The notes below the pieces were generated by a model. The model saw nothing but the letters and a program-made list of their open reading frames with translations. It had not been told where the DNA came from and did not search any database. From positions 1 to 64,000 of the forward strand of contig CAWCKH010000002.1 of assembly GCA_963796055.1 (NCBI GenBank): a stretch of 64,000 nucleotides of DNA, in the 5' to 3' direction. Source of the DNA: an uncultured delta proteobacterium (GTDB lineage Bacteria; Myxococcota; Myxococcia; Myxococcales; Myxococcaceae). This document shows, piece by piece, positions 43,814 through 58,688 of this stretch (position 1 is its first letter; every line of letters begins with the position of its first letter). A program made the translations under genes and the position numbers.

Positions 43814-45961
43814 ATGGGCGCGTTCAGCAGACGCGACTTCCTCCACTCCTCGGCTGTCGCCGGAACGGGGCTGGTCATCGCCTTCACCATCCCTCGCCGG
43901 GCCGAGGCGCTCGCCGGCGGTCCACCGAAGAAGAAGCCTCTGCCCCCGCCCAACGCGTTCCTGCGCATCGCGCCGGACGACTCGGTCACCGTCCTCCTCG
44001 CCCACTCGGAAATGGGTCAGGGCATCTGGACCACGCTGCCCATGCTCCTCGCCGAGGAGCTCGACTGCGACTGGGCGAAGATCCGCGTCGAGCACGCTCC
44101 CGCGGCGCCGGTCTACGCCCACACCGCCTACGGCGCGCAGATGACGGGCGGCTCGACCACCACCTGGTCCGAGTTCGAGCGATACCGGACGGTGGGCGCC
44201 ATCGCCCGCCAGCTGCTGGTCCGCGCCGCCGCCGAGAGGTGGAAGATCGACGCGGCGAAGCTCCGGGTCGAGAACGGGTTCGTCATCGGCGGCGCTCGCC
44301 GGGCCTCCTTCGGAGAGCTGGCCGAGCGGGCGCGGGCACTCCCCACGCCGGAGAAGGTCACCCTCAAGCCCCCCGAGCGGTGGAAGCTCATCGGCAAGCC
44401 GATGCGGCGGCTCGACACCCCCGAGAAGATCACCGGGCGAGCGGTGTTCGGGATCGACGTGCAGTTTCCCGGGCTGCGGACGGCGGTGGTGGCTCGCTCC
44501 CCCGTCTTCGGCGGCACCCTGAAGTCCTTCGACCCGACCGAGGCGCACAAGGTTCCCGGCGTCGAGCAGGTGGTCCAGGTCCCGAGCGGGGTGGCGGTGG
44601 TGGCGGCCAACACCTGGGCGGCGAGGCTCGGACGAGCGGCCCTGAAGACCGACTGGGACCTCGGACCTGGCGCGACGATGGACAGCGAGCGGATGCGGGC
44701 CGAGGCGCTCGCGCTCTCGCGCACCGCCGGACCGGTGGCACTGGACAAGGGAGACGTCGACACCGCGCTGGGCAAGGGCGCCCGGCGGCTGGAGGCCGAC
44801 TACGAGGTCCCCTACCTCGCCCACGCGCCCATGGAGCCTCTCAACGCCACGGTGAAGGTCGAGGGCGATCGGTGCGACATCTGGACCGGGACCCAGTTCC
44901 AGACCTCGGACCAGGCCACCGCGGCGCAGATCCTCGGCCTCAAGCCCGAGCAGGTGGCCATCCACACCACCTTCCTCGGCGGCGGATTCGGCCGGCGTGC
45001 CACCACCAGCTCCGACTTCGTCCGGGAGGCGACCGAGGTGGCCAAGGCCGCGAAGGTCCCGGTCAAGGTGGTCTGGACCCGCGACGACGACATCCGCGGC
45101 GGCTACTACCGTCCGGCGTTCCTTCACCGGATCGAGGCGGCGCTGGATGCGCGCGGACGGCCCGTGGCCTGGAAGCACACCTTGGTGGGCCAGTCGATCA
45201 TCACCGGAACGCCGTTCGAAGGGGCGATGGTCAAGAACGGAATCGACGAGGCCTCCGTCGAGGGCGTGGTCGACTCGCCCTACCTGGCGGCGATCCCCTC
45301 CCGGAAGGTGATGCTCCACTCGCCGAAGCCACCCATCCCGGTGCTCTGGTGGCGGTCGGTCGGAAACAGTCACACCGCCTTCGCCATGGAGTCGATGATC
45401 GACGAGCTGGCGCATGCTGCCGGGCAGGACCCGCTCGCCTACCGCCTGGCGATGCTCAAGGGCTCTCCGCGTCACGCCCGGGTGCTGCAGACCGCGGCGG
45501 AGAAGGCGGGTTGGGGGCGCTCGCCCGGCCCCGGTCGCGCGCTGGGCCTGGCGATGCACGCCTCCTTCGAGAGCGTCTTCGCCCAGGCGGCCGAGGTCTC
45601 CCTCGAGCCGGACGGCCGCATCCGGGTGCACCGGGTCGTGTGCGCCCTGGACTGCGGGCAGCCCATCAACCCCCTCGGGATCGAGGCCCAGGTTCAGAGC
45701 GGCATCGCCTTCGGGCTCGGCGCCGCGCTCCACAGCGCGATCACCTTCCGCAACGGTCGGGTCCAGGAGAGCAACTTCCACGACTACCGGGTCCTGCGCA
45801 TCGACGAGATGCCTCGGGTGGAGGTCCACATCCTCAAGAGCAGCGCGAAGATGGGCGGCATCGGTGAACCCGGGCTTCCCCCCATCGCCCCGGCGGTGGC
45901 GAACGCGCTGTTCGCGCTCAGCGGGAAGCGGCTCCGCTCCCTTCCCTTCCGCCTGGCCTGA
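43814..45961 (+). CDS. iorB: Molybdopterin-binding subunit (xanthine dehydrogenase family), Tat-exported
   Basis: SRRDFL Tat motif, EMGQG, HAPMEP, GGGFGRR, GGIGEP. Confidence 0.93.
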   Translation: MGAFSRRDFLHSSAVAGTGLVIAFTIPRRAEALAGGPPKKKPLPPPNAFLRIAPDDSVTVLLAHSEMGQGIWTTLPMLLAEELDCDWAKIRVEHAPAAPVYAHTAYGAQMTGGSTTTWSEFERYRTVGAIARQLLVRAAAERWKIDAAKLRVENGFVIGGARRASFGELAERARALPTPEKVTLKPPERWKLIGKPMRRLDTPEKITGRAVFGIDVQFPGLRTAVVARSPVFGGTLKSFDPTEAHKVPGVEQVVQVPSGVAVVAANTWAARLGRAALKTDWDLGPGATMDSERMRAEALALSRTAGPVALDKGDVDTALGKGARRLEADYEVPYLAHAPMEPLNATVKVEGDRCDIWTGTQFQTSDQATAAQILGLKPEQVAIHTTFLGGGFGRRATTSSDFVREATEVAKAAKVPVKVVWTRDDDIRGGYYRPAFLHRIEAALDARGRPVAWKHTLVGQSIITGTPFEGAMVKNGIDEASVEGVVDSPYLAAIPSRKVMLHSPKPPIPVLWWRSVGNSHTAFAMESMIDELAHAAGQDPLAYRLAMLKGSPRHARVLQTAAEKAGWGRSPGPGRALGLAMHASFESVFAQAAEVSLEPDGRIRVHRVVCALDCGQPINPLGIEAQVQSGIAFGLGAALHSAITFRNGRVQESNFHDYRVLRIDEMPRVEVHILKSSAKMGGIGEPGLPPIAPAVANALFALSGKRLRSLPFRLA

Positions 45962-45968
45962 GGTGACC

Positions 45969-46580
45969 GTGCGCCCTCTGCTCGCCTCCGTGCTCATCCT
46001 CGCCGCGCTCGCGCTCGGCTGTTCCCACGACGCCCGCCAGGGTCCTCCCACGGGCGGCCCCGCGGCCGCCGCGCCGGCCGCATCGTCGGACCCGGTCGCC
46101 GCGTTCGAGACCGTCCGCGCCGTGCTCCAGGACCCCCGCTGTCAGAACTGCCATCCGCCGGGGGATCGCCCGCTCCAGACGGACCGGAGCACGGTGCACA
46201 CGATGAACGTCCAGCGCGGGCCCACCGGACACGGCATGCCGGGCGCCGAGTGCGGCACGTGCCACGGCAGGGCCAACCTCCCCGACAGCTACGGAGCGCA
46301 TCAACCGCCGGGCGTCTCCCCCGACTGGCATATGCCTCCGCCGGAGATGCCGATGGTCTTCGTGGGCCGGAGTTCCCGCGAACTCTGCGAGCAGCTCAAG
46401 GATCCTGCCCGGACCGCGATCTCCACGGTGCCGGCGCTCCTCAAGCACGTGAGCAGCGATCCGCTGGTGCTCTGGGGATGGACACCCGGGTTCGGAAGGA
46501 AGCCAGTTGCGGTGCCACACGCCGAGTTCGTCGCCGCGTTCCAGCGCTGGACGGATGCCGGCCGTCCCTGTCCACAGTGA
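45969..46580 (+). CDS. Cytochrome c-type lipoprotein associated with IorAB
   Basis: ALGC lipobox; CQNCH and CGTCH heme motifs. Confidence 0.8.
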   Translation: MRPLLASVLILAALALGCSHDARQGPPTGGPAAAAPAASSDPVAAFETVRAVLQDPRCQNCHPPGDRPLQTDRSTVHTMNVQRGPTGHGMPGAECGTCHGRANLPDSYGAHQPPGVSPDWHMPPPEMPMVFVGRSSRELCEQLKDPARTAISTVPALLKHVSSDPLVLWGWTPGFGRKPVAVPHAEFVAAFQRWTDAGRPCPQ

Positions 46581-46621
46581 TGCCGGCGGCCCGGACGTGA
46601 TCGCGTAGCCAGCCGCGAAAT

Positions 46622-46656
46622 GGCCCCGGAACCAGAAACATCCTGATTCCGGGGCC
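46622..46656. terminator. Stem-loop between the convergent cytochrome c gene and tRNA-Pro
   Basis: GGCCCCGGAA ... TTCCGGGGCC perfect 10-bp stem; U-tract weak. Confidence 0.5.
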
Positions 46657-46661
46657 TTCAA

Positions 46662-46738
46662 TGGTCGGGGCGACTGGATTTGAACCAGCGACCACCTGCA
46701 CCCCAAGCAGGTGCGCTACCAGGCTGCGCTACGCCCCG
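46662..46738 (-). tRNA. tRNA-Pro(GGG)
   Basis: CGGGGCGTAGCGCAGCCTGGTAGCGCACCTGCTTGGGGTGCAGG...GGTTCAAATCC...CCCGACCA; CCA encoded. Confidence 0.97.
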
Positions 46739-46802
46739 GGAACTGCTCGGCAATACGGCGGACTGCGGGGAAGCGGGGGTGTACCTGCGAGCCCCCGACG
46801 GG

Positions 46803-47135
46803 TCAAGCCGCTCCGTCCGACCCGGAGCCGCCGCGAGCAGCCGCCTCGGCGGCTTCGGCCGAGGCGTTCAGCGCGCTCTTCAGCACCTGGCTGGGGCGGA
46901 AGGTGAGCACCCGGCGTGCGGAGATCTCGATCTCCTTGCCGGTCTGGGGATTCCGCCCGACGCGCGCGTTCTTCTGGCGCACCTGGAAGTTCCCGAAGCC
47001 GGAGATCTTGATCTTGTCCCCGCGCTCCAGCGTCTCCTTCACCGTGTCGAAGACCAGCTCGACGATCTCCGCGGACTCTTTCTTGGAGAAGCCCACCTTC
47101 TCGTAGACGCCTTCGATGATGTCGGCCTTCGTCAT
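46803..47135 (-). CDS. ihfA: Integration host factor alpha subunit
   Basis: MTKADIIE, KISGFGNF, GRNPQTG; directly downstream of pheT. Confidence 0.95.
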   Translation of the reverse strand: MTKADIIEGVYEKVGFSKKESAEIVELVFDTVKETLERGDKIKISGFGNFQVRQKNARVGRNPQTGKEIEISARRVLTFRPSQVLKSALNASAEAAEAAARGGSGSDGAA

Positions 47136-47195
47136 GGACCCCAAGCATGCCTGCCTGCTCGCGAAAGTGTCAACTTACCGGAGTTGCTAAGGGTT

Positions 47196-49616
47196 TTAGC
47201 GACCCCTCAGCTGGCCGCCCAGGCGCCGCTGGACCTCGTCCACGATGCGCCGGTGGGCCTCCTGGACCTCGTCGTCGCGGAGGGTGCGCTCCGGTGAGCG
47301 ATAGGTGAGCGCGAAGGCCAGGTTCTTCTGCCCCTCGGGCAGAGGTGGGCCGGTGTAGACGTCGAACAGCACCGCGTCCTCGACCAGCGGCTGGCCCACC
47401 TCGCGGATGACGGCGCGCACCTCGGCCGCCTCCATCGTGACCGGGACGACCACCGCGAGGTCGCGGAGCACTGCCGGGTAGCGCGGCAGCGGCTGGAACT
47501 GGGGCGAGAGCCGCGCCACCTGCTCCAGCCCCTCGAACTCGAGCTCGAAGGCGAACACGCCCGGGGGGAGCTCGAGGTGCTGCGCCACGAGGGGATGCAC
47601 CTCGCCGATCCACCCCAGCACCACGTCCTCGACCCGGGCCTCGGCCGTCGCCCGCGGGTGGAACGGCGCCACGCGGGCCAGCCGGCAGCTCAGCTCCCCG
47701 GCCGACAGCGCCGAGACGATGGCCTCCACCGCGCCCCGGGCATCGGCGAAGTCGTTCTGCGCGTCCTTCGAGGTCCAGCTCCGCGGCTCGCGACGGCCCC
47801 AGAGCACTCCGGCGACGTGGAGCCGCTCCTCGGCCACCGGCCGGAGGTCCTTGCCGCCGTGCGGATCGCGCAGGTAGGCCCGGCCAATCTCGTAGAGCCG
47901 GAGCGACTCGGGCTGGTGCCGCAGGTTCGAGGCGACGTTGGAGAGCAGCGAGGCCAGCAGGGTGGTCCGCATCACCGCCTGCTGGGGGGTGAGCGGGTTC
48001 TTCAAGCTGACCGCCCCCACCGGCGTCCCGAGCTTCTCCAGCGCCCGCGGCGTCACCCACGGCAGCACGCCCGGATCGACGAAGCTGTAGTTCACCACCT
48101 CGTCGAAGCCGGCACCGGAGAGCGCCCCGCGGATGCGCCGCTCCACCTCGACCCACGCCGGCTCGGGAACCAGCTCGCCTGAGCTGGCCGGGAGGACCGA
48201 GGGGATGTGCTCGTATCCGCGGATCCGTGCGACCTCCTCCACCAGGTCCTCGGGTCGCTCCACGTCCTGGCGCCATCCAGGGACGCGCCAGCGACCGCCC
48301 GCCTCGGCGGCGAAGCCGAGGGACGAGAGAATGGAGCGGACCTCCGAATCGGGCGTTGCGGCCCCGAGCAGGCCGTCCACCTCGCCCGTGGCCAGCGGGA
48401 CGACGCGCGGCTCGGCCGGGCGCGGGTGCACGTCGATGCGCCCCCGCCGCACGGTGGCCCCGGACAGCTCGGCCATCAGCGCCGCGGCATGGTCCAGCAC
48501 CTCGGGCAGCACGGTGCGGTCCACGCCGCGCTCGAAGCGGTAGGACGCCTCGCTGTGGAGCTGGTGGCGTCGGGCCATCCGGCGGATGGTGCCCGGGTCC
48601 CAGTTCGCCGCCTCGAGCAACACCCGGGTCGTCCCGTCGCTGACCTCGGTGTCCGCACCGCCCATGGTGCCGGCGAGCGACTGCGCCCCGCGCGCGTCCT
48701 CGATGACCAGATCGTCCGCCACCAGGGTCCGCTGCTTGCCGTCGAGCGTGGTCAGCGGCTCACCCTCGCGTGCCCGCCGCACCCGGAGGACGCCGCCCTG
48801 GATGCGGTCCAGATCGAAGGCGTGAAAGGGCTGGCCCAGCTCGAGCATCACGTAGTTGGTGACGTCGACCACGTTGCTGATGCTCCGCACCCCGCAGCGC
48901 TCCAGTCGCCGCCGGAGCCACGCGGGCGACGGTCCGATGCGAACGCCCTCGAGCACCCGGGCGGTGAAGCGCCGACAGCCCTCCGGGTCAGCGATCTCGA
49001 TGCGGATCGCGTCCGAGACCGGCGCGCCCGACTCGGCCGGCACCCGGAGCTTGCGCTGCAGCGGGACGCCGAGCACCGCCGCCGCCTCCCGCCCCACGCC
49101 GAGGTGGCTGAGCGCATCGCCCCGGTTCGGCGTCACGTTCACCTCCAGCACCGTGTCCTCGAGCCCCAGCGCCCGGGCCAGCGGCGTCCCGGGCACCAGG
49201 TCCCTGGGGAGGATGAGGAGCCCGCTCGCATCCTCGGAGAGGCCGAGCTCCTTGCCCGAGCAGAGCATTCCCTGGCTCTCGACCCCCCGGAGGCTGGCGC
49301 GCTGGATGGCCGTCCCGCCCGGCAGGGTCGCCCCCACGGTCGCCAGCGGGACGAGGTCACCCACCTGGAAGTTCTTCGCCCCGCAGACGACTTGCAGTCG
49401 CGCGCCGCCCGCCTCCACCTGGGTGACGGACAGCTTCTCGGCATCGGGGTGCGGAGCCGCCGCCGCGATGCGTGCGACCACCACCCCGGCCAGCGCCTCG
49501 CCCGGCCGCTCCATCCCCTCCACCTCGAGGCCCGCCCGGGTCAGACGGCGGGCGAGCTCCTCCGGAGCCGGCAGCGGCGAGACGAACTCTTGAAGCCACT
49601 CGACGGAGACCTTCAT
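47196..49616 (-). CDS. pheT: Phenylalanine-tRNA ligase beta subunit
   Basis: VVCGAKN, TPNRGDALS, VDVTNYVMLELGQP, RFERGVD, FDVYTG. Confidence 0.98.
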   Translation of the reverse strand: MKVSVEWLQEFVSPLPAPEELARRLTRAGLEVEGMERPGEALAGVVVARIAAAAPHPDAEKLSVTQVEAGGARLQVVCGAKNFQVGDLVPLATVGATLPGGTAIQRASLRGVESQGMLCSGKELGLSEDASGLLILPRDLVPGTPLARALGLEDTVLEVNVTPNRGDALSHLGVGREAAAVLGVPLQRKLRVPAESGAPVSDAIRIEIADPEGCRRFTARVLEGVRIGPSPAWLRRRLERCGVRSISNVVDVTNYVMLELGQPFHAFDLDRIQGGVLRVRRAREGEPLTTLDGKQRTLVADDLVIEDARGAQSLAGTMGGADTEVSDGTTRVLLEAANWDPGTIRRMARRHQLHSEASYRFERGVDRTVLPEVLDHAAALMAELSGATVRRGRIDVHPRPAEPRVVPLATGEVDGLLGAATPDSEVRSILSSLGFAAEAGGRWRVPGWRQDVERPEDLVEEVARIRGYEHIPSVLPASSGELVPEPAWVEVERRIRGALSGAGFDEVVNYSFVDPGVLPWVTPRALEKLGTPVGAVSLKNPLTPQQAVMRTTLLASLLSNVASNLRHQPESLRLYEIGRAYLRDPHGGKDLRPVAEERLHVAGVLWGRREPRSWTSKDAQNDFADARGAVEAIVSALSAGELSCRLARVAPFHPRATAEARVEDVVLGWIGEVHPLVAQHLELPPGVFAFELEFEGLEQVARLSPQFQPLPRYPAVLRDLAVVVPVTMEAAEVRAVIREVGQPLVEDAVLFDVYTGPPLPEGQKNLAFALTYRSPERTLRDDEVQEAHRRIVDEVQRRLGGQLRGR

Positions 49617-49708
49617 GGCTAGACAGTATGGAGCGACCGGCTCGCTCGTTCAGCGCGGATTAGCCTCGGCAACGCCGCGGCCAGAGCCGCAAACGAGGAG
49701 CCGGTCGA

Positions 49709-50804
49709 GTGAAAACTACAACGCTGACCGTCGGAATGGACGTGCATAAGGAGTCGATTTCCTTCTCGGTGCTGGCCGGTGACCGGGGAGGCGCTCGGCC
49801 CACGGTGAAGATCCGGAACGATGCGCTCGAGCTGAAGCGCTGCTTCGGCAGGCTCAAAAAGGAAGGGGCGGTCCGCGCCTGCTACGAGGCCGGGAGTTGC
49901 GGCTACGAGGTCTACCGGCAGCTCGCAGCGATGAAGATCCCATGCGACGTGGTCGCGCCCTCGCTCATCCCGGTGCGCGCCGGCGATCGGGTCAAGACCG
50001 ACCGGCGCGACGCCGAGAAGCTCGCTCGCCTCTACCGCGCCGGCGAGCTCACTTCGATTCGCGTCCCCTCCGAGGCCGAGGAGGCGCTGCGGGATTCTCG
50101 TTCGCTGCCGAGAGGATGCGCGCGAGGACGTCATCCGCGAGCGCGACCGACTCCTGAAGTTCCTCCTGCGCCACGGGCGCAGCTTTACCGAGGGCAAGAA
50201 GAACTGGTCGATGCCGCACTGGAAGTGGCTTCGCAAACAGACGTTCGAGGCCCCCATCGCACAGACGGTCTTCACCGAGTACTTGGCCCGCCTCGAGGGA
50301 ACGCTCGGACGTCTCAAGGCGCTCGACCAGGAACTCGCGACAGCCGCCGAGAAGGAGCCCTATAAAACTCCCGTTGCGAAGCTCCGCTGCCTGCGCGGCA
50401 TCGACACGCTCTCGGCCGTCATCCTCATCGCCGAGATCTGCGACTTCCAGCGGTTCGAGCACCCCGACCAGTTCATGGCTTTCGTCGGCCTCGTCCCGAG
50501 CGAGCGCTCGAGCGGAGCCAAGGAGCGGCGGGGCAGCATCACCAAGACGGGCAACGGACACGCCCGGCGCGTACTGGTCGAGGCCGCCTGGCACTACCGG
50601 CGCCCGCCACGCCAGAGCGGCGTCATCAAACAGCGCTGGGAGGGCCAGGATGCAAAGGTCGTAGCCCACGCATGGAAAGCCCAGGAGCGGCTGCACCGGC
50701 GCTTCCACCGCTTCGTCTCCCGCGGCAAACCTTCGCAGGTCGCGGCCGTCGCCGTGGCTCGCGAGCTCTGCGGCTTTGTCTGGGCCATCGCCCGCGCCGC
50801 TTGA
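49709..50804 (+). pseudogene. IS110-family transposase/recombinase with a +1 frameshift near 50095
   Basis: GAGGAG RBS, GTG start; DEDD residues (GMDVHK, CYEAG, KTDRRDA); C-terminal domain RGID, GLVPSERSSG, ITKTGN, AVAREL; removing one T restores ALRDLVRCRED (365 codons). Confidence 0.88.
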
Positions 50805-50811
50805 AAGGAGC

Positions 50812-51045
50812 AACGTACGTGCATCGCTTCGAAGCCGGCAGGCAGTGGATGAGCCAGGAACGTAGGAGGGACTCTCGACAGTTCTAAGTGGCGGCGGGCT
50901 CGACCCGCCGACCCACGCCGCTAGAGCGAGAAAGCCTCCCGACGAATCACGGTCATGCGGCGGCTCCGCCGACCCGCGAATCCTAGAGTGATCAACCGTC
51001 GCAGCTCCCTCGCTCGTCCCCTGCCTGAAGGCCTCGAAGTACGAA
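50812..51045 (+). ncRNA. Predicted bridge RNA / seekRNA of the IS1111-group element
   Basis: Two stem-closed internal loops carrying target-matching (ACAGTTCTA, GCTAGA) and donor-matching (ATCCTAGA) segments; boundaries approximate. Confidence 0.8.
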
Positions 51046-51120
51046 CCACGAGGAGCTGCGAAGCGAACAGACGCATCGCCACCAACGAACGAGAGAGCTG
51101 ACTTGACGGGTCGCTCCATC

Positions 51121-52161
<1,041 letters not shown>

Positions 52162-52174
52162 GTGCTACCTCCCG

Positions 52175-52207
52175 AAACGACAAAGGGCCGCCCCTGGGGG
52201 CAGCCCT
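52175..52207 (-). terminator. Intrinsic terminator-like hairpin between rplT and pheS
   Basis: AGGGCTGCCC-CCAG-GGGCGGCCCT followed by TTGTCGTTT, just 5' of the pheS GGAGG. Confidence 0.55.
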
Positions 52208-52253
52208 CGTGTCGGCTCGCCGGGGTTGACGCCCCCCCGGCAGGGGTCCGATG

Positions 52254-52598
52254 TCAGGCCGCCGCGATCTTCGCGATGGCCGCAAAACCCTGCGGATCGG
52301 CGACGGCGATGTCGGCCAGCACCTTGCGGTCCAGCGCCACGTCCGCCTTTGCCAGCCCGGCGATGAGCCGGCTGTAGCTCAGGCCCGAGAGCCGGGCGGC
52401 GGCGTTGATCCGGACGATCCACAGCGAGCGGAAGTCCCGCTTCTTCCGGGCCCGATCCCGGCTGGCGTAGTCCAGCGCGCGCTCCACGGCCTGGTTCGCC
52501 CGCTTGTAGCAGTTCTTCCGCCGGCCCCGGTAACCCTTGGCCAGCTTCAAAATCCGGTTGCGCCGACGGCGCGCCTTGAAGCCCTTCTTGACCCGCAT
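52254..52598 (-). CDS. rplT: 50S ribosomal protein L20
   Basis: [31 protein letters not shown]. Confidence 0.98.
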
Positions 52599-52607
52599 GA
52601 CTCGTCC

Positions 52608-52817
52608 TCAGTTCGCCCCGTAGGGGAACAGCTCCTTGATGACCTTCTTCGCGTCCATGTCGCGAAGGTAGCCGGTGCCGCGGTGGCGGCGATCGTTGTT
52701 GGCGGTCTTGGAGAAGGTGAACAGGTGCTTCCCGTAGGCCTTGGCGTGCTTCACCTTGCCCGACTTCTTCACCTGGAACCGCTTCTTGGCCGCACTGCGC
52801 GTCTTCAGCTTCGGCAT
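52608..52817 (-). CDS. rpmI: 50S ribosomal protein L35
   Basis: MPKLKTRSAAKKRF. Confidence 0.97.
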   Translation of the reverse strand: MPKLKTRSAAKKRFQVKKSGKVKHAKAYGKHLFTFSKTANNDRRHRGTGYLRDMDAKKVIKELFPYGAN

Positions 52818-52827
52818 CGCTCGACTC

Positions 52828-53463
52828 CTAAACGTGTCCTGGCCCGGCTGGGGCCTTGGAGGCGGCGGCGGCGGCAGGGGCCGGCTCCGTCTTCCGCTCT
52901 GCTTCCTGTTGTGCCGCCCGTTGCCTGGCCAGATCGCGCGCCCGCTGGGCGACCTTGGGGTTGGGGGCGAGGATCATGAACATCTGCCGGCCTTCCATTC
53001 GGGGCACCTGCTCCACCACCCCGACCTCTTTCACGTCCTTGATGACGTCTTCGAGCAACGCCTGGCCGAGCTCCTTGTGGGTGATCTCCCGGCCCCGGAA
53101 CATGATGGTGATGCGCGCCTTGTTCCCCTCCTCGAGGAAGCGCTTCACGTTCCGGACCTTGAACTCGTAGTCGTGCTCCTCCGTCTTCGGCCGCATCTTC
53201 ACCTCCTTGAGGTGAACCACGACCTGCTTCTTCTTCGCCTCCGATGCCCGCTTCTTCTCCTCGTACTTGAAGCGGCCGTAATCCATGATCTTGCAGACCG
53301 GAGGCTTGGCCATGGGGTTGACCTCCACGAGGTCCATCCCGAACTGATTGGCCTGCTCCAGTGCCGCTTCGATCGTCAAAACACCCAGCTGCTCGCCAGC
53401 GGGCCCGACCACGCGCACTTCACGGGCGCGGATCCGCCGGTTCGTTCTCTGGTCGCGAGCGAT
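52828..53463 (-). CDS. infC: Translation initiation factor IF-3 (ATC start, C-terminal extension)
   Basis: RTNRRIRAREVRVV, PPVCKIMDYG, FRGRE; GGAGG RBS 9 nt before an in-frame ATC at 53463. Confidence 0.95.
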   Translation of the reverse strand: MARDQRTNRRIRAREVRVVGPAGEQLGVLTIEAALEQANQFGMDLVEVNPMAKPPVCKIMDYGRFKYEEKKRASEAKKKQVVVHLKEVKMRPKTEEHDYEFKVRNVKRFLEEGNKARITIMFRGREITHKELGQALLEDVIKDVKEVGVVEQVPRMEGRQMFMILAPNPKVAQRARDLARQRAAQQEAERKTEPAPAAAAASKAPAGPGHV

Positions 53464-53526
53464 GTGAGTCGACCTCCAGCTGGGGGAAGCCTGCCCGTGT
53501 AGGCGCAGGGGTCCAAAAGGCGGGGC

Positions 53527-53554
53527 AAGATACTTGCCTGACGCCCCAAGTCAA
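53527..53554 (-). promoter_or_regulatory. Putative sigma70-type promoter for infC-rpmI-rplT
   Basis: TTGACT-N16-TATCTT on the minus strand. Confidence 0.55.
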
Positions 53555-53605
53555 GCGAGCCCTCCGGTTCTCCCCATAGCGCGGAAAGGCGCACACTGCA
53601 CGGCG

Positions 53606-55312
53606 ATGCGAGCCTTGCTGACCCTGGTCCTGGCCGGGTGGACGGTGTCGGCCTCGGCAGCCCCCCGCTCGGGAGGGGACACCTCGACGGGGCTTCTCTT
53701 CCACGACACCTGTGCGGGGGGCAAGGCCCCGGTCTGCAGCCGGCTGGGGCGGATGTTCATGCCCGGGTTTGTGACCCGGAACGAGCAGAGGGCGCTCCGG
53801 GCGTCCAAGGCCTACTGCGAGCTGCTGGGGACGCCCTGGGAGTGTCTGGATGCCCGGGAGCGGGTGCTTCGCCAGCGGCCTCCGGACCTGCCAGCCGCGG
53901 CGCGGTTCGCCGAGGGGGCGTGCAAGTCCGGCTCCCCGCGGGGCTGCGTGCTCTGGGCGGAAGCGGTGGGGTGTGGCCGGGGTGTCCCGGCCGACGTGAA
54001 GAAGGGGCTCGGGGTGCTCCGGCGCCAGTGCGAGCAGAGCCCGCAGGCCTGTCTCGAGCTGGCGGTGTGGCTGGACTTCCCGGGGGCAGCGGCGGCGCTG
54101 GACGGCTCGCCGGCCAAGGCGAGCGCGACCTACGTGGCGGCGGAGATCGCGCTCACCAACGACCGCGTGGACCGCGCCGCCGAACTCCTGGCGCTGCTCC
54201 CCAGGAGCCAGTCGCCATGGCCCGAGCGACGGGCATTCCTCTCCGCGATGATCGGGCTGGCGCGCCGTGACCAGGCGGCCTTCCGTGCCGGGGTGAAGCA
54301 GCTCCAGACGCTGAAGCCGGACGAGCGGGTGACGCGTATCCTGGGGCGAGTGGCGTCGGGCGACTGGACGGCCGGGTGGATGCCAGCGCTGATCTCCGCC
54401 TGGACGGAGGAGCGGAAGCCCGAGCTGAAGGGTGACCCGTTCCTCCTCCCCTCCTTCGAGCCTCAGTCCACCTGCATCCCGGACGAGCGTGAGCCCGCGA
54501 ACGCTGGATCACCGGACACCGTGGAGGGCTTCGTGACCCGCCTCGCGCACCGGTTCCACGGTCGGCCGAGGCTGCCACCCCCGCGCGCGCTGCTCGAGGC
54601 GGCGCAGATCCACGCGGCGGGACGGGACGACGGGGTGCGGCTGATCGCCCTGTCGCTGCTGGTCGAGCCGTTCCTCACCGCCGAGCAGCGGGAGCAGTCA
54701 CGCGCTCCTGCCGCGGCGACCCTTGCCGCCCTGGCCGACGCACACCCGCGGGAGCCGTTCTTCCAGCTCGCGGCGGTGGCAGGCCCGGACGCCGAGACTG
54801 CGCCGGTGGGGGTCCCGGCGCTCGAGCGACTGGAACGCCTGACCAAGCTCGGACAGCTGCGCTTCCCCGGCCGCCTCTTGCAGCAGACGCTGGAGCGCTA
54901 CCTCGCGCCCGACGACTTCTCGGACTTCGGGCTGAGCACCGCGGTGGAGGTGGTGCTGGACATCGACCTCGAGCGGTACCTGGAGCGGGTGCTGAACGAG
55001 GCCGGAGCCCCCGAGCGCCGGGTGGCGGTGGTCCGGACCCTGGCGTGGCAGATGTCCCGGAGCGAGTGGCTGGTGCATCTCTTCACCGGAGCGCGGCTCC
55101 TGTCGGCCGTCGCCGAACGCACCGGCAGCGACGCCGACCGGGCGCTGGCGGCATCAACTCTCGCCCATGGCCAGCGGCTGTGGAGCAGCTGGACGACCTT
55201 CCCCCGGATGGGGCGGTGGCCGGCATCCGCGCTTCCGGACGAGCTGCGGGCCCGCGGGTTCGAGGACGAGGTGGGAGTGCTCGAGCGCTACGCGGCGATG
55301 GGTGCGGAGTGA
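53606..55312 (+). CDS. Secreted protein with Cys-rich Sel1-like repeats
   Basis: Signal peptide MRALLTLVLAG; ACKSGSPRGC...GRGVPADVKKG...QCEQSPQAC. Confidence 0.7.
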   Translation: MRALLTLVLAGWTVSASAAPRSGGDTSTGLLFHDTCAGGKAPVCSRLGRMFMPGFVTRNEQRALRASKAYCELLGTPWECLDARERVLRQRPPDLPAAARFAEGACKSGSPRGCVLWAEAVGCGRGVPADVKKGLGVLRRQCEQSPQACLELAVWLDFPGAAAALDGSPAKASATYVAAEIALTNDRVDRAAELLALLPRSQSPWPERRAFLSAMIGLARRDQAAFRAGVKQLQTLKPDERVTRILGRVASGDWTAGWMPALISAWTEERKPELKGDPFLLPSFEPQSTCIPDEREPANAGSPDTVEGFVTRLAHRFHGRPRLPPPRALLEAAQIHAAGRDDGVRLIALSLLVEPFLTAEQREQSRAPAAATLAALADAHPREPFFQLAAVAGPDAETAPVGVPALERLERLTKLGQLRFPGRLLQQTLERYLAPDDFSDFGLSTAVEVVLDIDLERYLERVLNEAGAPERRVAVVRTLAWQMSRSEWLVHLFTGARLLSAVAERTGSDADRALAASTLAHGQRLWSSWTTFPRMGRWPASALPDELRARGFEDEVGVLERYAAMGAE

Positions 55313-55460
55313 GGCCCCACGCGGCGCAGTTCTCCGCACACGGCGCACCTACAGCAGCCTGCACGGTGCGTTTTCGAGCGAAGCAACACGAGCTCGAGAG
55401 GTGTTGCATCCGGGTCCACGGGGCCGACGAAACAAAGCCAAACTTCCGGGACACAGGACG

Positions 55461-55475
55461 TGGCACGAGGGATGC
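55461..55475 (+). promoter_or_regulatory. Putative sigma54 (-24/-12) promoter
   Basis: TGGCACGAGGGATGC (GG-N10-GC); equivalent motif upstream of the paralog at 57799. Confidence 0.7.
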
Positions 55476-55511
55476 GATGGACGGGGGCGTCTCGTCTCTG
55501 GAGGTCGCACC

Positions 55512-55694
55512 GTGAACAGCTCCCCCGCCGCCGTCTCGCCTGTTGTCGTCCGTTGGGTCTCGCTGCTGGCGCTCGGCTACGTCGCCGCCAGCACCCTCCT
55601 CGTCCGGGACTACATCGTCCAGACCCGGACGGCGATTCACTCCCAGGCGGCCCGGCCGGCGCCCGTGAACGACTCGGCGTACGCCAACCGCTGA
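55512..55694 (+). CDS. 60-aa single-TM small protein (paralog A)
   Basis: GGAGG RBS, GTG start; 27 of the last 47 aa identical, ungapped, to 57799..57993. Confidence 0.8.
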   Translation: MNSSPAAVSPVVVRWVSLLALGYVAASTLLVRDYIVQTRTAIHSQAARPAPVNDSAYANR

Positions 55695-55703
55695 GCGAGC
55701 TCT

Positions 55704-57632
55704 CTAGGGCGCGGAGGCTTCCTTCGAGAGCAGCTCGAGGAACGCGTCGAGCGGCATGCTCTTGAGGTCCTCGCCTCCGTAGCGCCGCGGGGCGACCGCG
55801 CGCTGCTCCACCTCCCGATCGCCGATGACCAGGGTGAAGGGGATCTTCTGGAGCTGGGCCTCGCGGATCTTCGCGTTCATCGTCATCCCGCGATCGTCCA
55901 GCTCGGCGCGGAAGCCACGGCAACGAAGCAGCTCGAGCACCTCGCGGGCGTAGGGCAGCTGGCGGTCGGCGACCGTGACCAGCTGGACCTGGATCGGTGC
56001 GAGCCAGGTGGGGAACGCCCCGGCGTAGTGCTCGACCAGGATGGCGATGAAGCGCTCGAAGCTGCCGTAGATGGCACGGTGGAGGACGACCGGGCGGTGC
56101 TCGGCGTTGTCCTCGCCGACGTAGGAGAGCTCGAAACGCTCGGGGGCGTTGTAGTCGGCCTGGATGGTGCCCAGCTGCCAGGTGCGCCCGATGCTGTCCT
56201 TCACGTGGAAGTCGAGCTTGGGGCCGTAGAAGGCGCCGTCGCCCGGGTTCTGCTCGTACTCGATGCCGAGCGATTTCACCGCCGACTCCAGCGCCGCCTC
56301 GGCACGGTCCCAGAGCGCGTCGTCGCCGATGCGCTGCGGCGGGCGGGTGCCGAACTTGGCGACGTACGTCAGGCCGAACGCGGCGTAGACCTTGTCCAGG
56401 AGCTGGATGAAGCGCTTCACCTCGTCGGCGAGCTGTCCCTCGGTGCAGTAGATGTGCGCGTCGTCCTGGGCGAACTGCCGGACCCGGGTGAGGCCGCTGA
56501 GGCTGCCCGACGCCTCGTTCCGGTGCAGCACGTCCTGGGTGGCGTACCGCAGCGGCAGCTCGCGGTAGCTGTGCTTCCGGGACGCGAAGTACAGATGGTG
56601 CGAGGGGCAGTTCATCGGCTTCAGGCTGAAGTCGTGCTCGCCGGTCTCCTTGTCGAGGACCAGGAACATGTTCTCGCGGTACTTGCCCCAGTGGCCGCTC
56701 TTCTCCCAGAGCGCCTTGTTGTAGAGGAGCGGGGTCTTGATCTCCTGGTAGCCGTTCTCGCGGGTCCAGCGACGGATCTGGTCGGCGAGCACCTGGTAGA
56801 GGACGGTTCCCTTCGGGCTCCAGAAGGCGGCGCCGGGGGCCTCGGGGAAGAACTCGAACAGGTCGAGCTCCCGGCCGAGCTTCCGGTGGTCGCGCTTCTT
56901 CGCCTCCTCCTGCTGCTTCAGCCAGGCGTCGAGCTCCTTCTTGTCGAAGAAGGCGGTGCCGTAGATGCGCTGGAGCATCGGATTGCGGTGGTCGCCGCGC
57001 CAGTACGCGCCGCTGGTGCTCAGCAGCTTGATGACGCCGATCTTTCCGGTCGACGGACCATGCGGGCCGAGGCAGAAGTCGACCCAGTCGCCGTGGCGGT
57101 AGAGAGTCAGCGTCGTGGCGCCCTTGGCGACGATGTCCTCGATGATTTCCACCTTGAACTTCTCGCCCTTGGACTCGAAGAGCTGGATCGCGTCGGCGAC
57201 GTTCACCTCCTCACGGACGAAGGGGAGGTTCTGGGCGACCTCCTTGTTGGCCTCCGCCTCGATCGCCTCGAGCTCCTCCGGGGTGAACGGCTTGTCGCGG
57301 AAGAAGTCGTAGTAGAAGCCGCCGTCGATCGTCGGGCCGATGGTGACCTGGGTCCCGGGGAAGAGCTTCTGGACGGCGCTGGCCACCACGTGCGCGGCGT
57401 CGTGACGGATGGTGTCCAGGGCCTCCGGAGTCCTGGAGGTGAGAATCTCCAGCTTCCCGTTCTCGGTCAGCGGCCGCGAGAGGTCGACCTCGTTGCCATT
57501 GAAGCGCGCGAGGACCGCCGCCTTGGCCAGGCCGGGGCCGATGGACTCCTTGACGAAGTCCCCGACGCGGATGCCGACCGGGGCAGCCTTGGCGCTGCCG
57601 TCCGGGAGGGTGATCTGGATGCTGTCCGACAT
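55704..57632 (-). CDS. thrS: Threonine-tRNA ligase
   Basis: TGS domain, [41 protein letters not shown]. Confidence 0.98.
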
Positions 57633-57744
57633 GGGAGGCGGATACCTACGGGATTGTTGCCCGTGGCGCCACAGCCCGGCTGGGCCGTCACCCCCAGCGC
57701 CACGCCCAGGGCAACAAATTCCCTAACACAGGCCACACAAAGGC

Positions 57745-57759
57745 CGGCACGGCGAATGC
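57745..57759 (+). promoter_or_regulatory. Putative sigma54 (-24/-12) promoter
   Basis: CGGCACGGCGAATGC (GG-N10-GC), followed by GATGGA as in copy A. Confidence 0.65.
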
Positions 57760-57798
57760 GATGGATGGGGCCGTTCTCGCCGTTGGAGGTCAAGCCCC

Positions 57799-57993
57799 AT
57801 GTCCCGCTCCGCCGCCGTCATTCCGTCTGCTCCCCGTTCCCACATCGCCCGCTGGGTTGCCCTTCTAGCCGTCGGCTACCTCGCGGGCAGCGCTCTCCTC
57901 GTTCGGGATTTCGTCGTGCAGAACCGGACGGCGACGCAGGCACAGGTGGCCCACGAGGCGGCCGTTTCCAGTCCCTCGTACGCGGCCCGCTAG
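57799..57993 (+). CDS. 64-aa single-TM small protein (paralog B)
   Basis: GGAGG RBS; RWVALLAVGYLAGSALLVRD core shared with paralog A. Confidence 0.8.
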   Translation: MSRSAAVIPSAPRSHIARWVALLAVGYLAGSALLVRDFVVQNRTATQAQVAHEAAVSSPSYAAR

Positions 57994-58108
57994 TACTCCC
58001 CTCGCGGGGCTGCATCAGCCCGATCCACCGGCGTCCCCGAGGTCCTGCACCTCGGTGCGTAAGACCTTGCGCCAGCGACCCCGAAGACTTGAGCCGTCTC
58101 AGATGCTG

Positions 58109-58180
<72 letters not shown>

Positions 58181-58220
58181 CGAAGAGGCAGGGGAAATAC
58201 CTGCCCGCCCCCCGGGGGTG

Positions 58221-58688
58221 TCAAGCACGCTCGACCCGGGCCGCGTAGCAGCCGCGCCCGGCGTTGTGCACATGGAGGTACGCCGTCCCGGGAACCGCGA
58301 GCAGTCGCTCGAAGAGCGGCGCCGCCTCCCGGCCGTTCACCACCACCCCATCGAGCATCTGTCCTGCCTGGTCGAACGCCCGGACCGAGAGCGTGCGGCG
58401 GGCGAGCACCTCCGGAACTTCGTTCACCTCTGGATGCGCTTCCTCGGCGCCATCCTCGACGAAGATCGCGTGCTGCGAGCGGTACGGGGTGGCGGCAGGC
58501 TGGTGCTCGAAGTTCAGGAGGAGCATCCGGGCACCACGCGGAGCGTCCCGGAGCGACACGCGACAGGGGAACCCCGGCGATTCGTCGGCGATCTTCACCT
58601 CGACCCCCCGCTTCACCAGCTCGGCCTCGGGCAGCCCGTAGAGCGGCCGGAACAAGGACGACGGCAGACCCACCACGCGAAACGCCAC
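58221..58688 (-). CDS. DUF1203-family protein
   Basis: PGFPCRVSLRDA, PYRSQHAIFV, YLHVHNAGRGCYAARV. Confidence 0.85.
   Translation of the reverse strand: MAFRVVGLPSSLFRPLYGLPEAELVKRGVEVKIADESPGFPCRVSLRDAPRGARMLLLNFEHQPAATPYRSQHAIFVEDGAEEAHPEVNEVPEVLARRTLSVRAFDQAGQMLDGVVVNGREAAPLFERLLAVPGTAYLHVHNAGRGCYAARVERA

What the first reader, a model, noticed from the sequence alone, without database searches (positions are those of the whole stretch)
49614..51130. IS1111-group element inserted scarlessly at the junction of two essential genes
Seen: removing 49621-51122 restores CAG TTC TAG cc ATG on the minus strand, i.e. the pheS stop 2 nt before the pheT start. CTAG occurs at both junctions (49619-49622, 51121-51124), and the 11-bp sub-terminal IRs lie 7 and 3 nt from the ends. 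Both ORFs remain intact. Known: the 7/3 sub-terminal spacing is typical of IS1111-group elements, and PheS commonly ends in QF-stop. Inference: a conserved coding terminus is used as a safe-harbour site present in many hosts, much as other elements use tRNA genes or REP sites.
Basis: partly seen in the sequence, partly recalled or inferred. Interest (0 to 1): 0.75.

Follow-up and report, generated by a model that had tools for sequence, protein, structure and literature searches.

The report
Stop-codon-targeting IS with antisense read-through frame
A 1.5-kb jumping gene sits exactly on the stop codon between two essential genes, and its other copies sit at the same short motif, mostly at gene ends; it is likely steered there by its own guide RNA, its ends rebuild the stop codon, and a reading frame that runs backwards through the whole intact element would let ribosomes pass through it to the genes behind.

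Summary
The insertion is real and exact: an IS110-superfamily element with IS1111-type ends (49621-51122) lies between pheS and pheT, and 10 same-genus genomes have the empty junction. The pheS 'safe harbour' reading fails. The genome holds five copies at the 8-bp site GCT|AGAAC and only one is at pheS. Guide segments in the 3' non-coding region covary with the target in relatives. On the other strand the site reads TTC-TAG (Phe-stop): 9 of 10 sites in two genomes are gene stops, against 22 of 42 unoccupied sites. The right end rebuilds the TAG and places an ATG 1 nt behind it. In the intact copy a 499-codon antisense frame runs from there to the duplicated TAG, which here lies 2 nt before pheT. 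Relatives at 88% and 74% keep the frame through length changes of exactly 3 nt; one 88% relative lost it. It likely relays translation and keeps operons non-polar (about 55%, untested). Against this: open antisense frames are common in this host, and four of five copies, this one included, carry a frameshift that may be an assembly error. IS900 hed is the closest precedent; this scan noted a similar idea before in an IS1595-family element.

The parts
49621..51122 (+). IS110-superfamily insertion sequence with IS1111-type ends, 1502 nt here (1501 nt in the intact copy G000:C3)
49619..49622 (.). CTAG at the left junction; on the minus strand its TAG (49621-49619) lies 2 nt before the pheT ATG
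49628..49638 (+). left sub-terminal inverted repeat, 7 nt from the end
49709..50804 (+). DEDD transposase gene (364 aa in the intact copy); frame shifted here by an extra T at 50095
50805..51122 (+). 3' non-coding region, predicted seek/bridge RNA (fold z = -4.1; 8 of 75 consensus pairs show a change on both sides in 4 sequences)
50881..50886 (+). predicted guide 1, complement of the right half of the target; changes with the target in L141 and L143
50920..50925 (+). predicted guide 2, matches the left half of the target and the core; changes with the target in L141 and L143
50980..50987 (+). match to the joined element ends (predicted donor-binding segment); follows the end type across the family
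51103..51108 (+). -35-like hexamer; predicted to pair with a -10-like hexamer of the left end, 17 nt away, only in the circular form
   Evidence: no sigma-70 match in the linear form
51109..51119 (+). right sub-terminal inverted repeat, 3 nt from the end; its minus strand begins with the ATG of the antisense frame
49619..51119 (-). end-to-end antisense reading frame: 499 codons in the intact copy; here cut at TGA 50051-50049 after 356 codons by the extra base, with the last 246 codons before TAG 49621-49619 still open
51121..51124 (.). CTAG at the right junction; supplies the pheS stop TAG (51123-51121), two of its three bases from the element end
51121..52161 (-). pheS, phenylalanyl-tRNA synthetase alpha chain, ends QF-stop
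47196..49616 (-). pheT, phenylalanyl-tRNA synthetase beta chain; loses its weak Shine-Dalgarno context in the filled allele (+1.0 against -3.3 kcal/mol)

Best explanation
This is an IS110-superfamily insertion sequence with IS1111-type ends that sits at the 8-bp site GCT|AGAAC, is likely steered there by a guide RNA from its 3' non-coding region, rebuilds the host's TAG stop, and carries an antisense frame from end to end that would carry ribosomes across it to the next gene. SHOWN: five copies at one motif; guide-like segments that change with the target; the motif reads TTC-TAG on the other strand and 9 of 10 sites are gene stops; the right end restores TAG and puts an ATG 1 nt later; in the intact copy the frame from that ATG stays open for 499 codons and stops at the duplicated TAG, so a downstream gene meets the same stop-to-start spacing as before. 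INFERRED: excision as a circle with a junction promoter and RNA-guided insertion, as in IS1111-family elements. CTAG is scarce in these GC-rich genomes and survives largely at stop codons, so the guide in effect selects gene ends. A ribosome leaving pheS would restart at the element's ATG, keep the 1.5 kb translated (limiting Rho-dependent polarity) and be handed to pheT. The 499-aa product is probably a by-product. The targeting part deserves about 0.9, the relay part about 0.55.
For: Copies and flanks. Empty alleles. Guide covariation. Across 83 elements the complement of the right target half (6 nt or more) is in the own 3' region in 65, against a mean of 11 (max 20) in 200 shuffles; both halves in 9 against 0.7, complement first in 9 of 9. 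Donor match in 74 of 76 ATC-ended and 6 of 7 CCT-ended elements. Stop siting: 4 of 5 in G000, 5 of 5 in G153; unoccupied sites 7 of 17 and 15 of 25; p = 0.03; oriented CTAG overall 436 of 2422. Antisense frame: 499 codons in G000:C3, 500 in L140 (88% aa) and L143 (74% aa). Among 80 other elements one has an open frame from the repeat ATG, and it does not stop at the left end. The RNA core holds 6 antisense stop triplets, so only one phase is open; all four segment-length changes in L140 and L143 are 3 nt, while those in L141 are +1, +17, +5 outside the gene. TTA/CTA/TCA codons: 0 seen, 5.4 expected; other A-ending codons 46 seen, 38 expected. pheT has no Shine-Dalgarno match in the filled allele and the element's ATG inherits the old context. 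Rho is encoded. A same-strand gene starts 9-21 nt after 3 of 5 G153 left ends.
Against: 613 of 1018 host genes of similar length also have an open in-register antisense frame, and 11 of 37 GC-matched transposases lack the three codons. Four of five copies in the assembly, this one included, carry a +1 base that breaks both transposase and antisense frame; whether these are errors is unsettled. L141 (88% aa) has lost the frame; L142 (81%, truncated, catalytic Asp changed) has an in-frame stop. The sites of L140 and L143, the two relatives that keep the frame, do not score as gene stops. Only 4 of 9 sites with a left flank have a close downstream gene that could profit. The ATG is part of a repeat conserved across the family for other reasons. 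Only three full-length elements carry the argument, and the frame was noticed after the fact. Stop enrichment can come from loss of insertions inside genes. Gene calls in flanks come from my own codon model; two of the four G000 host genes have no Pfam match. Across the wider family, stops on this strand are not enriched (6 of 71 against 32 of 389).
Confidence: 0.55

Rival explanations
1. An ordinary RNA-guided IS. The antisense frame is a by-product of GC-rich codon use, and the siting at stops follows from CTAG scarcity plus loss of insertions that break genes. The pheS/pheT insertion is a tolerated or mildly harmful recent event, with pheT translated from its own weak start or through short internal antisense frames.
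For: Open antisense frames in 60% of host genes; half of unoccupied sites are stops anyway; a chance antisense frame of 474 of 512 codons in L334 and a full one in L098; loss in L141; frameshifts in four of five copies; no same-genus genome carries the element.
Against: Only 12 of 150 antisense frames of GC-matched 3' regions are stop-free. Retention from G000 to L143 without selection is about 0.27 x 0.5 x 0.8 times 1/27 for three phases (my multiplication, about 0.004). The three stop-forming codons are missing while other A-ending codons are not.
Confidence: 0.35
2. The antisense frame encodes a functional protein, as was proposed for IS900 hed, and the element uses host stops to get it expressed by translational coupling.
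For: Own ATG and terminal stop; length kept at 499-500 codons in three elements.
Against: No Pfam match. Its sequence conservation follows that of the transposase codons and the RNA core, and its first part is reshuffled by 1-2 nt indels between G000 and L143.
Confidence: 0.05
3. One reading: the element is programmed for the conserved pheS end as a dedicated safe harbour shared by many hosts.
For: The guide 1 region matches the pheS flank over 9 nt (seen), more than the other flanks (6-8 nt); QF-stop in 15 of 18 relatives.
Against: 1 of 5 copies here and 0 of 5 right flanks in G153 are at pheS; all 18 relatives examined are empty and only 7 have the 8-bp site.
Confidence: 0.03
4. The junctions are a mis-assembly that placed a repeat copy between pheS and pheT.
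For: Multi-copy repeat; one copy starts a contig; no read-level check available.
Against: Both junctions fall to the base on the same motif as the other copies; the flanks join to exactly the relatives' junction; there is no second, empty pheS-pheT in the genome.
Confidence: 0.02

Closest known systems
IS1111-family elements with seekRNA (ISEc11, ISKpn4, ISPa11; PMC11187229) and bridge-RNA elements (IS621; PMC11208160)
   Same: DEDD transposase; 11-bp sub-terminal repeats 7 and 3 nt from the ends; long 3' non-coding region with two target matches, complement first; donor match; predicted circle-junction promoter; no true target duplication.
   Different: Transposase is 364 aa (paper: 330-350 aa) and only about 25% identical to two unnamed 340-aa plasmid transposases used as stand-ins. 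Target is a Phe-stop motif, not REP, attC or transposon ends. No end-to-end antisense frame is mentioned in the passages read ('stop codon' occurs 0 times in both main texts).
ISEc45 (E. coli) and IS1533 (Leptospira) branch
   Same: ISEc45 is the closest named transposase found (44% over 360 aa); Leptospira elements at 45% have the same end grammar. PMC11187229 calls IS1533 an IS1111-family member. That the Leptospira loci are IS1533 itself is my inference, not tested.
   Different: Most elements of this branch end in ATC rather than CCT, have other targets and carry several stops in the antisense frame.
IS900 and its hed gene (Mycobacterium avium subsp. paratuberculosis)
   Same: An ORF on the strand opposite the transposase that spans the whole element and depends on host signals (PMC8141618, passage).
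   Different: hed is described there as having no RBS or start codon of its own, and IS900 targets translation-initiation signals (title of Doran 1997 in that reference list; that it inserts between RBS and start codon is recalled). Here the element targets stop codons, supplies its own ATG in the right repeat and ends at the duplicated stop.

Membership tests
IS110 superfamily | N-terminal DEDD (PF01548) and C-terminal PF02371 domains | tested here: met
   (NF033542 253 bits, cut-off 140, intact copy)
IS110 superfamily | catalytic D, E, D, D and the C-terminal SG | tested here: met
   D11, E60, D98, D101, S268-G269 invariant in 14 aligned proteins; their role is assigned by analogy to IS621 (recalled)
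IS110 superfamily | circular intermediate with a junction promoter | not testable with these tools
   a -35/17/-10-like pattern forms across the joined ends here and in 49 of 90 elements; no circle observed
IS1111 family | sub-terminal inverted repeats of 11-13 bp | tested here: met
   perfect 11 bp; definition in PMC11187229
IS1111 family | terminal extensions of 7 bp left and 3 bp right | tested here: met
   ends fixed by four copies with both flanks and by empty alleles
IS1111 family | longer non-coding region downstream of tnp | tested here: met
   318 nt against 88 nt
IS1111 family | GL-P----S(T)G motif | tested here: met
   residues 260-269; motif from PMC11187229
IS1111 family | two target matches in the RNA, top-strand complement first | tested here: met
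   by sequence covariation only
IS1111 family | transposase of 330-350 aa related over its full length to that of IS1111 | tested here: inconclusive
   364 aa; 44% to ISEc45, 24-26% to two unnamed 340-aa proteins, 24% to ISEc21; IS1111 and ISEc11 themselves were not obtained and no tree was built. Filed therefore as IS1111-type by its ends, in the ISEc45/IS1533 branch
IS1111 family | RNA bound by the transposase and required for movement | not testable with these tools
   needs RNP purification and a transposition assay
IS900-type hed gene | ORF on the complementary strand spanning the whole element | tested here: met
   intact copy, L140 and L143; broken in the window copy
IS900-type hed gene | no start codon of its own; insertion at translation-initiation signals | tested here: not met
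   own ATG in the right repeat; insertion at stop codons. Works alike, not a member
IS900-type hed gene | transcribed and translated from host signals | not testable with these tools
   no expression data in hand

The most novel reading that the evidence does not exclude
An RNA-guided IS lineage has evolved a complete non-polar insertion strategy. Its guide is programmed to a host stop-codon motif, its ends regenerate the stop, and a selected 500-codon antisense frame restarts ribosomes at one end and delivers them to the original stop-start junction at the other. It can therefore enter coupled, essential operons such as pheS-pheT, and it loses the frame when it is reprogrammed to a non-stop target (as in L141).
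Probability: 0.45. Interest if true: 0.72.

Novelty: new variant of a known kind. Interest (0 to 1): 0.55.

Why it matters
If the relay holds, it explains how a 1.5-kb element can sit inside a tightly spaced essential operon, and it ties target programming in IS110/IS1111 elements to translation signals. It would extend the IS900 hed idea from start codons to stop codons and make the function of such whole-element antisense ORFs testable with one stop-codon mutation. The clade also offers naturally reprogrammed guide-target pairs and a design for non-polar, RNA-guided insertion at gene ends. If it fails, this is an ordinary IS1111-type element at an eye-catching site.

Tried and rejected
pheS-specific targeting: rejected. 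Search for called antisense proteins: none at E <= 1e-20 among 8000 candidates; uninformative, since gene callers would prefer the transposase. Sequencing runs: 20 DNA holders listed, no RNA holder listed. More close relatives with DNA: none in 351 and 251 genomes of two other phyla at E <= 1e-105, best 55% in 151 of a third; none by two patterns and best 54% by protein in viral contigs; 18 viral-contig elements with ends had no long antisense frame. The G287 end-pattern match was chance, with no element there. Frameshifts as errors at GATC: all four +1 bases in this element's copies and one in another repeat lie at GATC (5 of 23 extra bases in repeats), two different insertions at one site. 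But 0 of 7 G000 insertions in 271 kb of unique DNA with 1189 GATC sites do: left open, about even odds. Intrinsic terminators or linear promoters in the element: none above chance. Rfam: only tRNAs in 44000-58500. Solved structures: only ISCro4 and IS621 transposases, weakly. No structure or complex prediction was run. The first frame assignment took a wrong ORF for some elements and was redone.
Full report
Observation. The window lies in a 5.5-Mb, about 70% GC genome (earlier AI notes call it a myxobacterium, not tested here). The minus strand carries thrS, infC, rplT, pheS, pheT and a HU/IHF-family gene. Between pheS and pheT sits a 1502-nt element, 49621-51122. Removing it on paper restores CAG TTC TAG cc ATG, CTAG stands at both junctions, and a perfect 11-bp repeat lies 7 and 3 nt from the ends. 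pheS and pheT are whole and single-copy. Ten of 12 same-genus genomes have the two genes joined with no insert. The transposase gene (49709-50804, plus strand) has PF01548 and PF02371 but is frameshifted in this copy by an extra T at 50095.

What it is. The genome holds five copies, 99.7-99.9% identical. The intact one (G000:C3) encodes 364 aa, passes the NCBIfam IS110 cut-off and keeps D11, E60, D98, D101 and S268-G269. The ends, the 318-nt 3' non-coding region and the GL-P----SG motif fit the IS1111 description in PMC11187229. The closest named transposase found is ISEc45 at 44%; two unnamed 340-aa transposases and ISEc21 give 24-26%. I file it as IS110 superfamily with IS1111-type ends, in the ISEc45/IS1533 branch; strict IS1111 membership by transposase phylogeny was not settled.

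Target. All four copies with both flanks sit at GCT|AGAAC and the fifth has the same right flank; only one is at pheS. The 3' region folds better than all 100 shuffles (z = -4.1). It holds a complement of the right target half at 50881-50886 and a match to the left half at 50920-50925. Both change with the target in L141 and L143 and stay the same in L140, which has the same target. Element ends were found for 50 of 85 and 69 of 110 loci with a transposase hit. After dropping 11 with wrong ends or duplicates and 4 frameshifted ones, and collapsing near-identical copies, 90 distinct elements remained. Among 83 with flanks, the right-half complement occurs in 65 against a mean of 11 in shuffles; the left-half match is weaker (14 against 5); both occur in 9, complement first in all 9. 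A match to the joined ends follows the end type (74 of 76 ATC, 6 of 7 CCT; 13 ATC elements also hold the CCT form). This refutes a pheS-specific harbour. The full site is present at the pheS end in only 7 of 18 relatives.

Stop codons. On the other strand the site reads TTC-TAG. By a codon model trained on this genome, 4 of 5 copies are at gene stops; Pfam confirms pheS and a 2-oxoacid dehydrogenase E2 gene, not the other two. A sister element in G153, assembled only at its ends, has 5 of 5 right flanks at Phe-TAG stops and a same-strand gene 9-21 nt behind 3 of 5 left ends. Unoccupied sites are stops in 7 of 17 (G000) and 15 of 25 (G153; 3 of 33 matches had no locus), so 9 of 10 against 22 of 42, p = 0.03. 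Oriented CTAG in general is a stop in 436 of 2422. The motif is 15-fold rarer than its reverse in G153 (33 against 498). So the guide motif itself is largely a gene-end motif; the excess at occupied sites may be loss of harmful insertions. The right end makes a stop on that strand in 87 of 90 elements, but across the wider family long frames end there no more than chance (6 of 71 against 32 of 389); on the transposase strand they do (15 of 74 against 26 of 546, sites not independent).

Antisense frame. Behind the rebuilt TAG come one base and the ATG of the right repeat. In the intact copy that frame has no stop for 499 codons and ends at the TAG of the left junction; at this locus that TAG is 2 nt before pheT. 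pheT loses its weak Shine-Dalgarno match (-3.3 to +1.0 kcal/mol; host median -5.5), and the element's ATG inherits it. L140 (88% aa) and L143 (74%) have the same frame, 500 codons. Among 80 other elements (84 of 90 had a clean frame call) one is open from the repeat ATG, and it reads out into its flank. The RNA core carries six antisense stop triplets, all outside this frame. The four net length changes of non-coding segments in L140 and L143 are each 3 nt although many 1-2 nt indels separate them. The three codons that would make in-frame stops are absent (0 against 5.4 expected) while other A-ending codons are not depleted. My rough product for chance retention to L143 is about 0.004.

Against it. 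613 of 1018 host genes have an open in-register antisense frame, and 11 of 37 comparable transposases lack those codons. L334 reaches 474 of 512 codons without any such design. L141 (88%) has lost the frame, along with a lower GC3 and a target that gives no stop on that strand; this fits relaxed selection but is one case. L142 is truncated and has a stop. The L140 and L143 sites do not score as gene stops. Four of five G000 copies have a +1 base at one of two GATC sites, cutting the frame at 356 codons here and 231 in three others. Two different insertions at one site and a fifth GATC case in another repeat hint at assembly error, but unique DNA shows no such errors. If the extra base here is real, only the last 246 codons, with internal starts such as the ATG at 49747, could hand ribosomes to pheT. 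Reads were not examined, so this stays open.

Mechanism. Shown: the anatomy, the shared target, guide-target covariation, stop siting, stop regeneration and the frame in three full-length elements. Inferred from IS1111/IS621 work (PMC11187229, PMC11208160): circle formation, a junction promoter (pattern present here and in 49 of 90), RNA-guided insertion. Inferred here and untested: ribosomes restart at the repeat ATG, keep the insert translated in a host that encodes Rho, and terminate at the duplicated stop, so downstream genes stay coupled. The orientation would also keep host transcription from expressing the transposase. I give the relay about 0.55 and the by-product reading 0.35.

Literature. 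Seen: PMC11187229, parts 1-2 of 9 of the text, passages and a term search in 6 supplementary files (one picture PDF not searchable and the tree figures not visible, which bears on the family placement); passages of PMC11208160, PMC8141618, PMC2942039 and PMC3469429 (not relevant). Doran 1997 on IS900 hed was seen only as a title in two reference lists; further details are recalled. Nine searches listed no paper on an IS1111-type element aimed at stop codons with an end-to-end antisense frame, or on an IS between pheS and pheT; the library lacks most subscription journals. This scan's notes hold an IS1111-type look-alike (e1-781710) and an IS1595-family element said to keep its antisense frame open in a phage operon (e1-9730596); the latter prompted the codon control and is no independent evidence.

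Verdict. Observation confirmed; safe-harbour interpretation partly supported (gene ends in general, not pheS). New variant of a known kind; interest 0.55.

Noticed in passing
G000:C4 2893893-2895394, C4 3367421-3368922, C5 1-1496: Three other copies carry a +1 base at a second GATC site, in two different forms; only the C3 copy has an unbroken transposase.
   Followed up: partly
L021-L025 (G035): Five left-end fragments of a close relative (about 85% DNA identity) follow a shared 30-nt flank and begin with CGA instead of AGA; only one continues into a short, broken piece of transposase. Possibly non-autonomous derivatives or a repeated target.
   Followed up: no
L026-L029 (G021) and L042, L050, L059, L074, L113, L130, L160, L336, L338, L341: More distant family members often sit where a long frame on the transposase strand ends in T|AG, the mirror image of the siting seen here (15 of 74 against 26 of 546; further cases).
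   Followed up: partly
L098, L219: A 41%-identity element, 1467 nt, sits in an extragenic repeat and has a fully open antisense frame that reads out into the flank with no stop at the left end.
   Followed up: partly
L150: A 52%-identity element of length 3n+1 has both end phases as here and only one antisense stop, inside the right repeat.
   Followed up: no
window 49747, minus strand: An ATG with a -5.9 kcal/mol Shine-Dalgarno match opens a 42-codon frame ending at the left-junction TAG; it is the reverse of the His codon in the transposase's first catalytic motif and could act as a back-up entry to pheT.
   Followed up: partly
window 46662-46738 and 58108-58180: tRNA-Pro(GGG) downstream of the HU/IHF-family gene and tRNA-Val(GAC) upstream of thrS.
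   Followed up: no
window 53534-55312: A 592-codon ORF on the plus strand separates thrS from infC; not annotated here.
   Followed up: no
G000:C1 1-1611 and 348038-349641: Both ends of contig C1 carry the same 1.6-kb repeat, which has further copies on C4 and C5.
   Followed up: no
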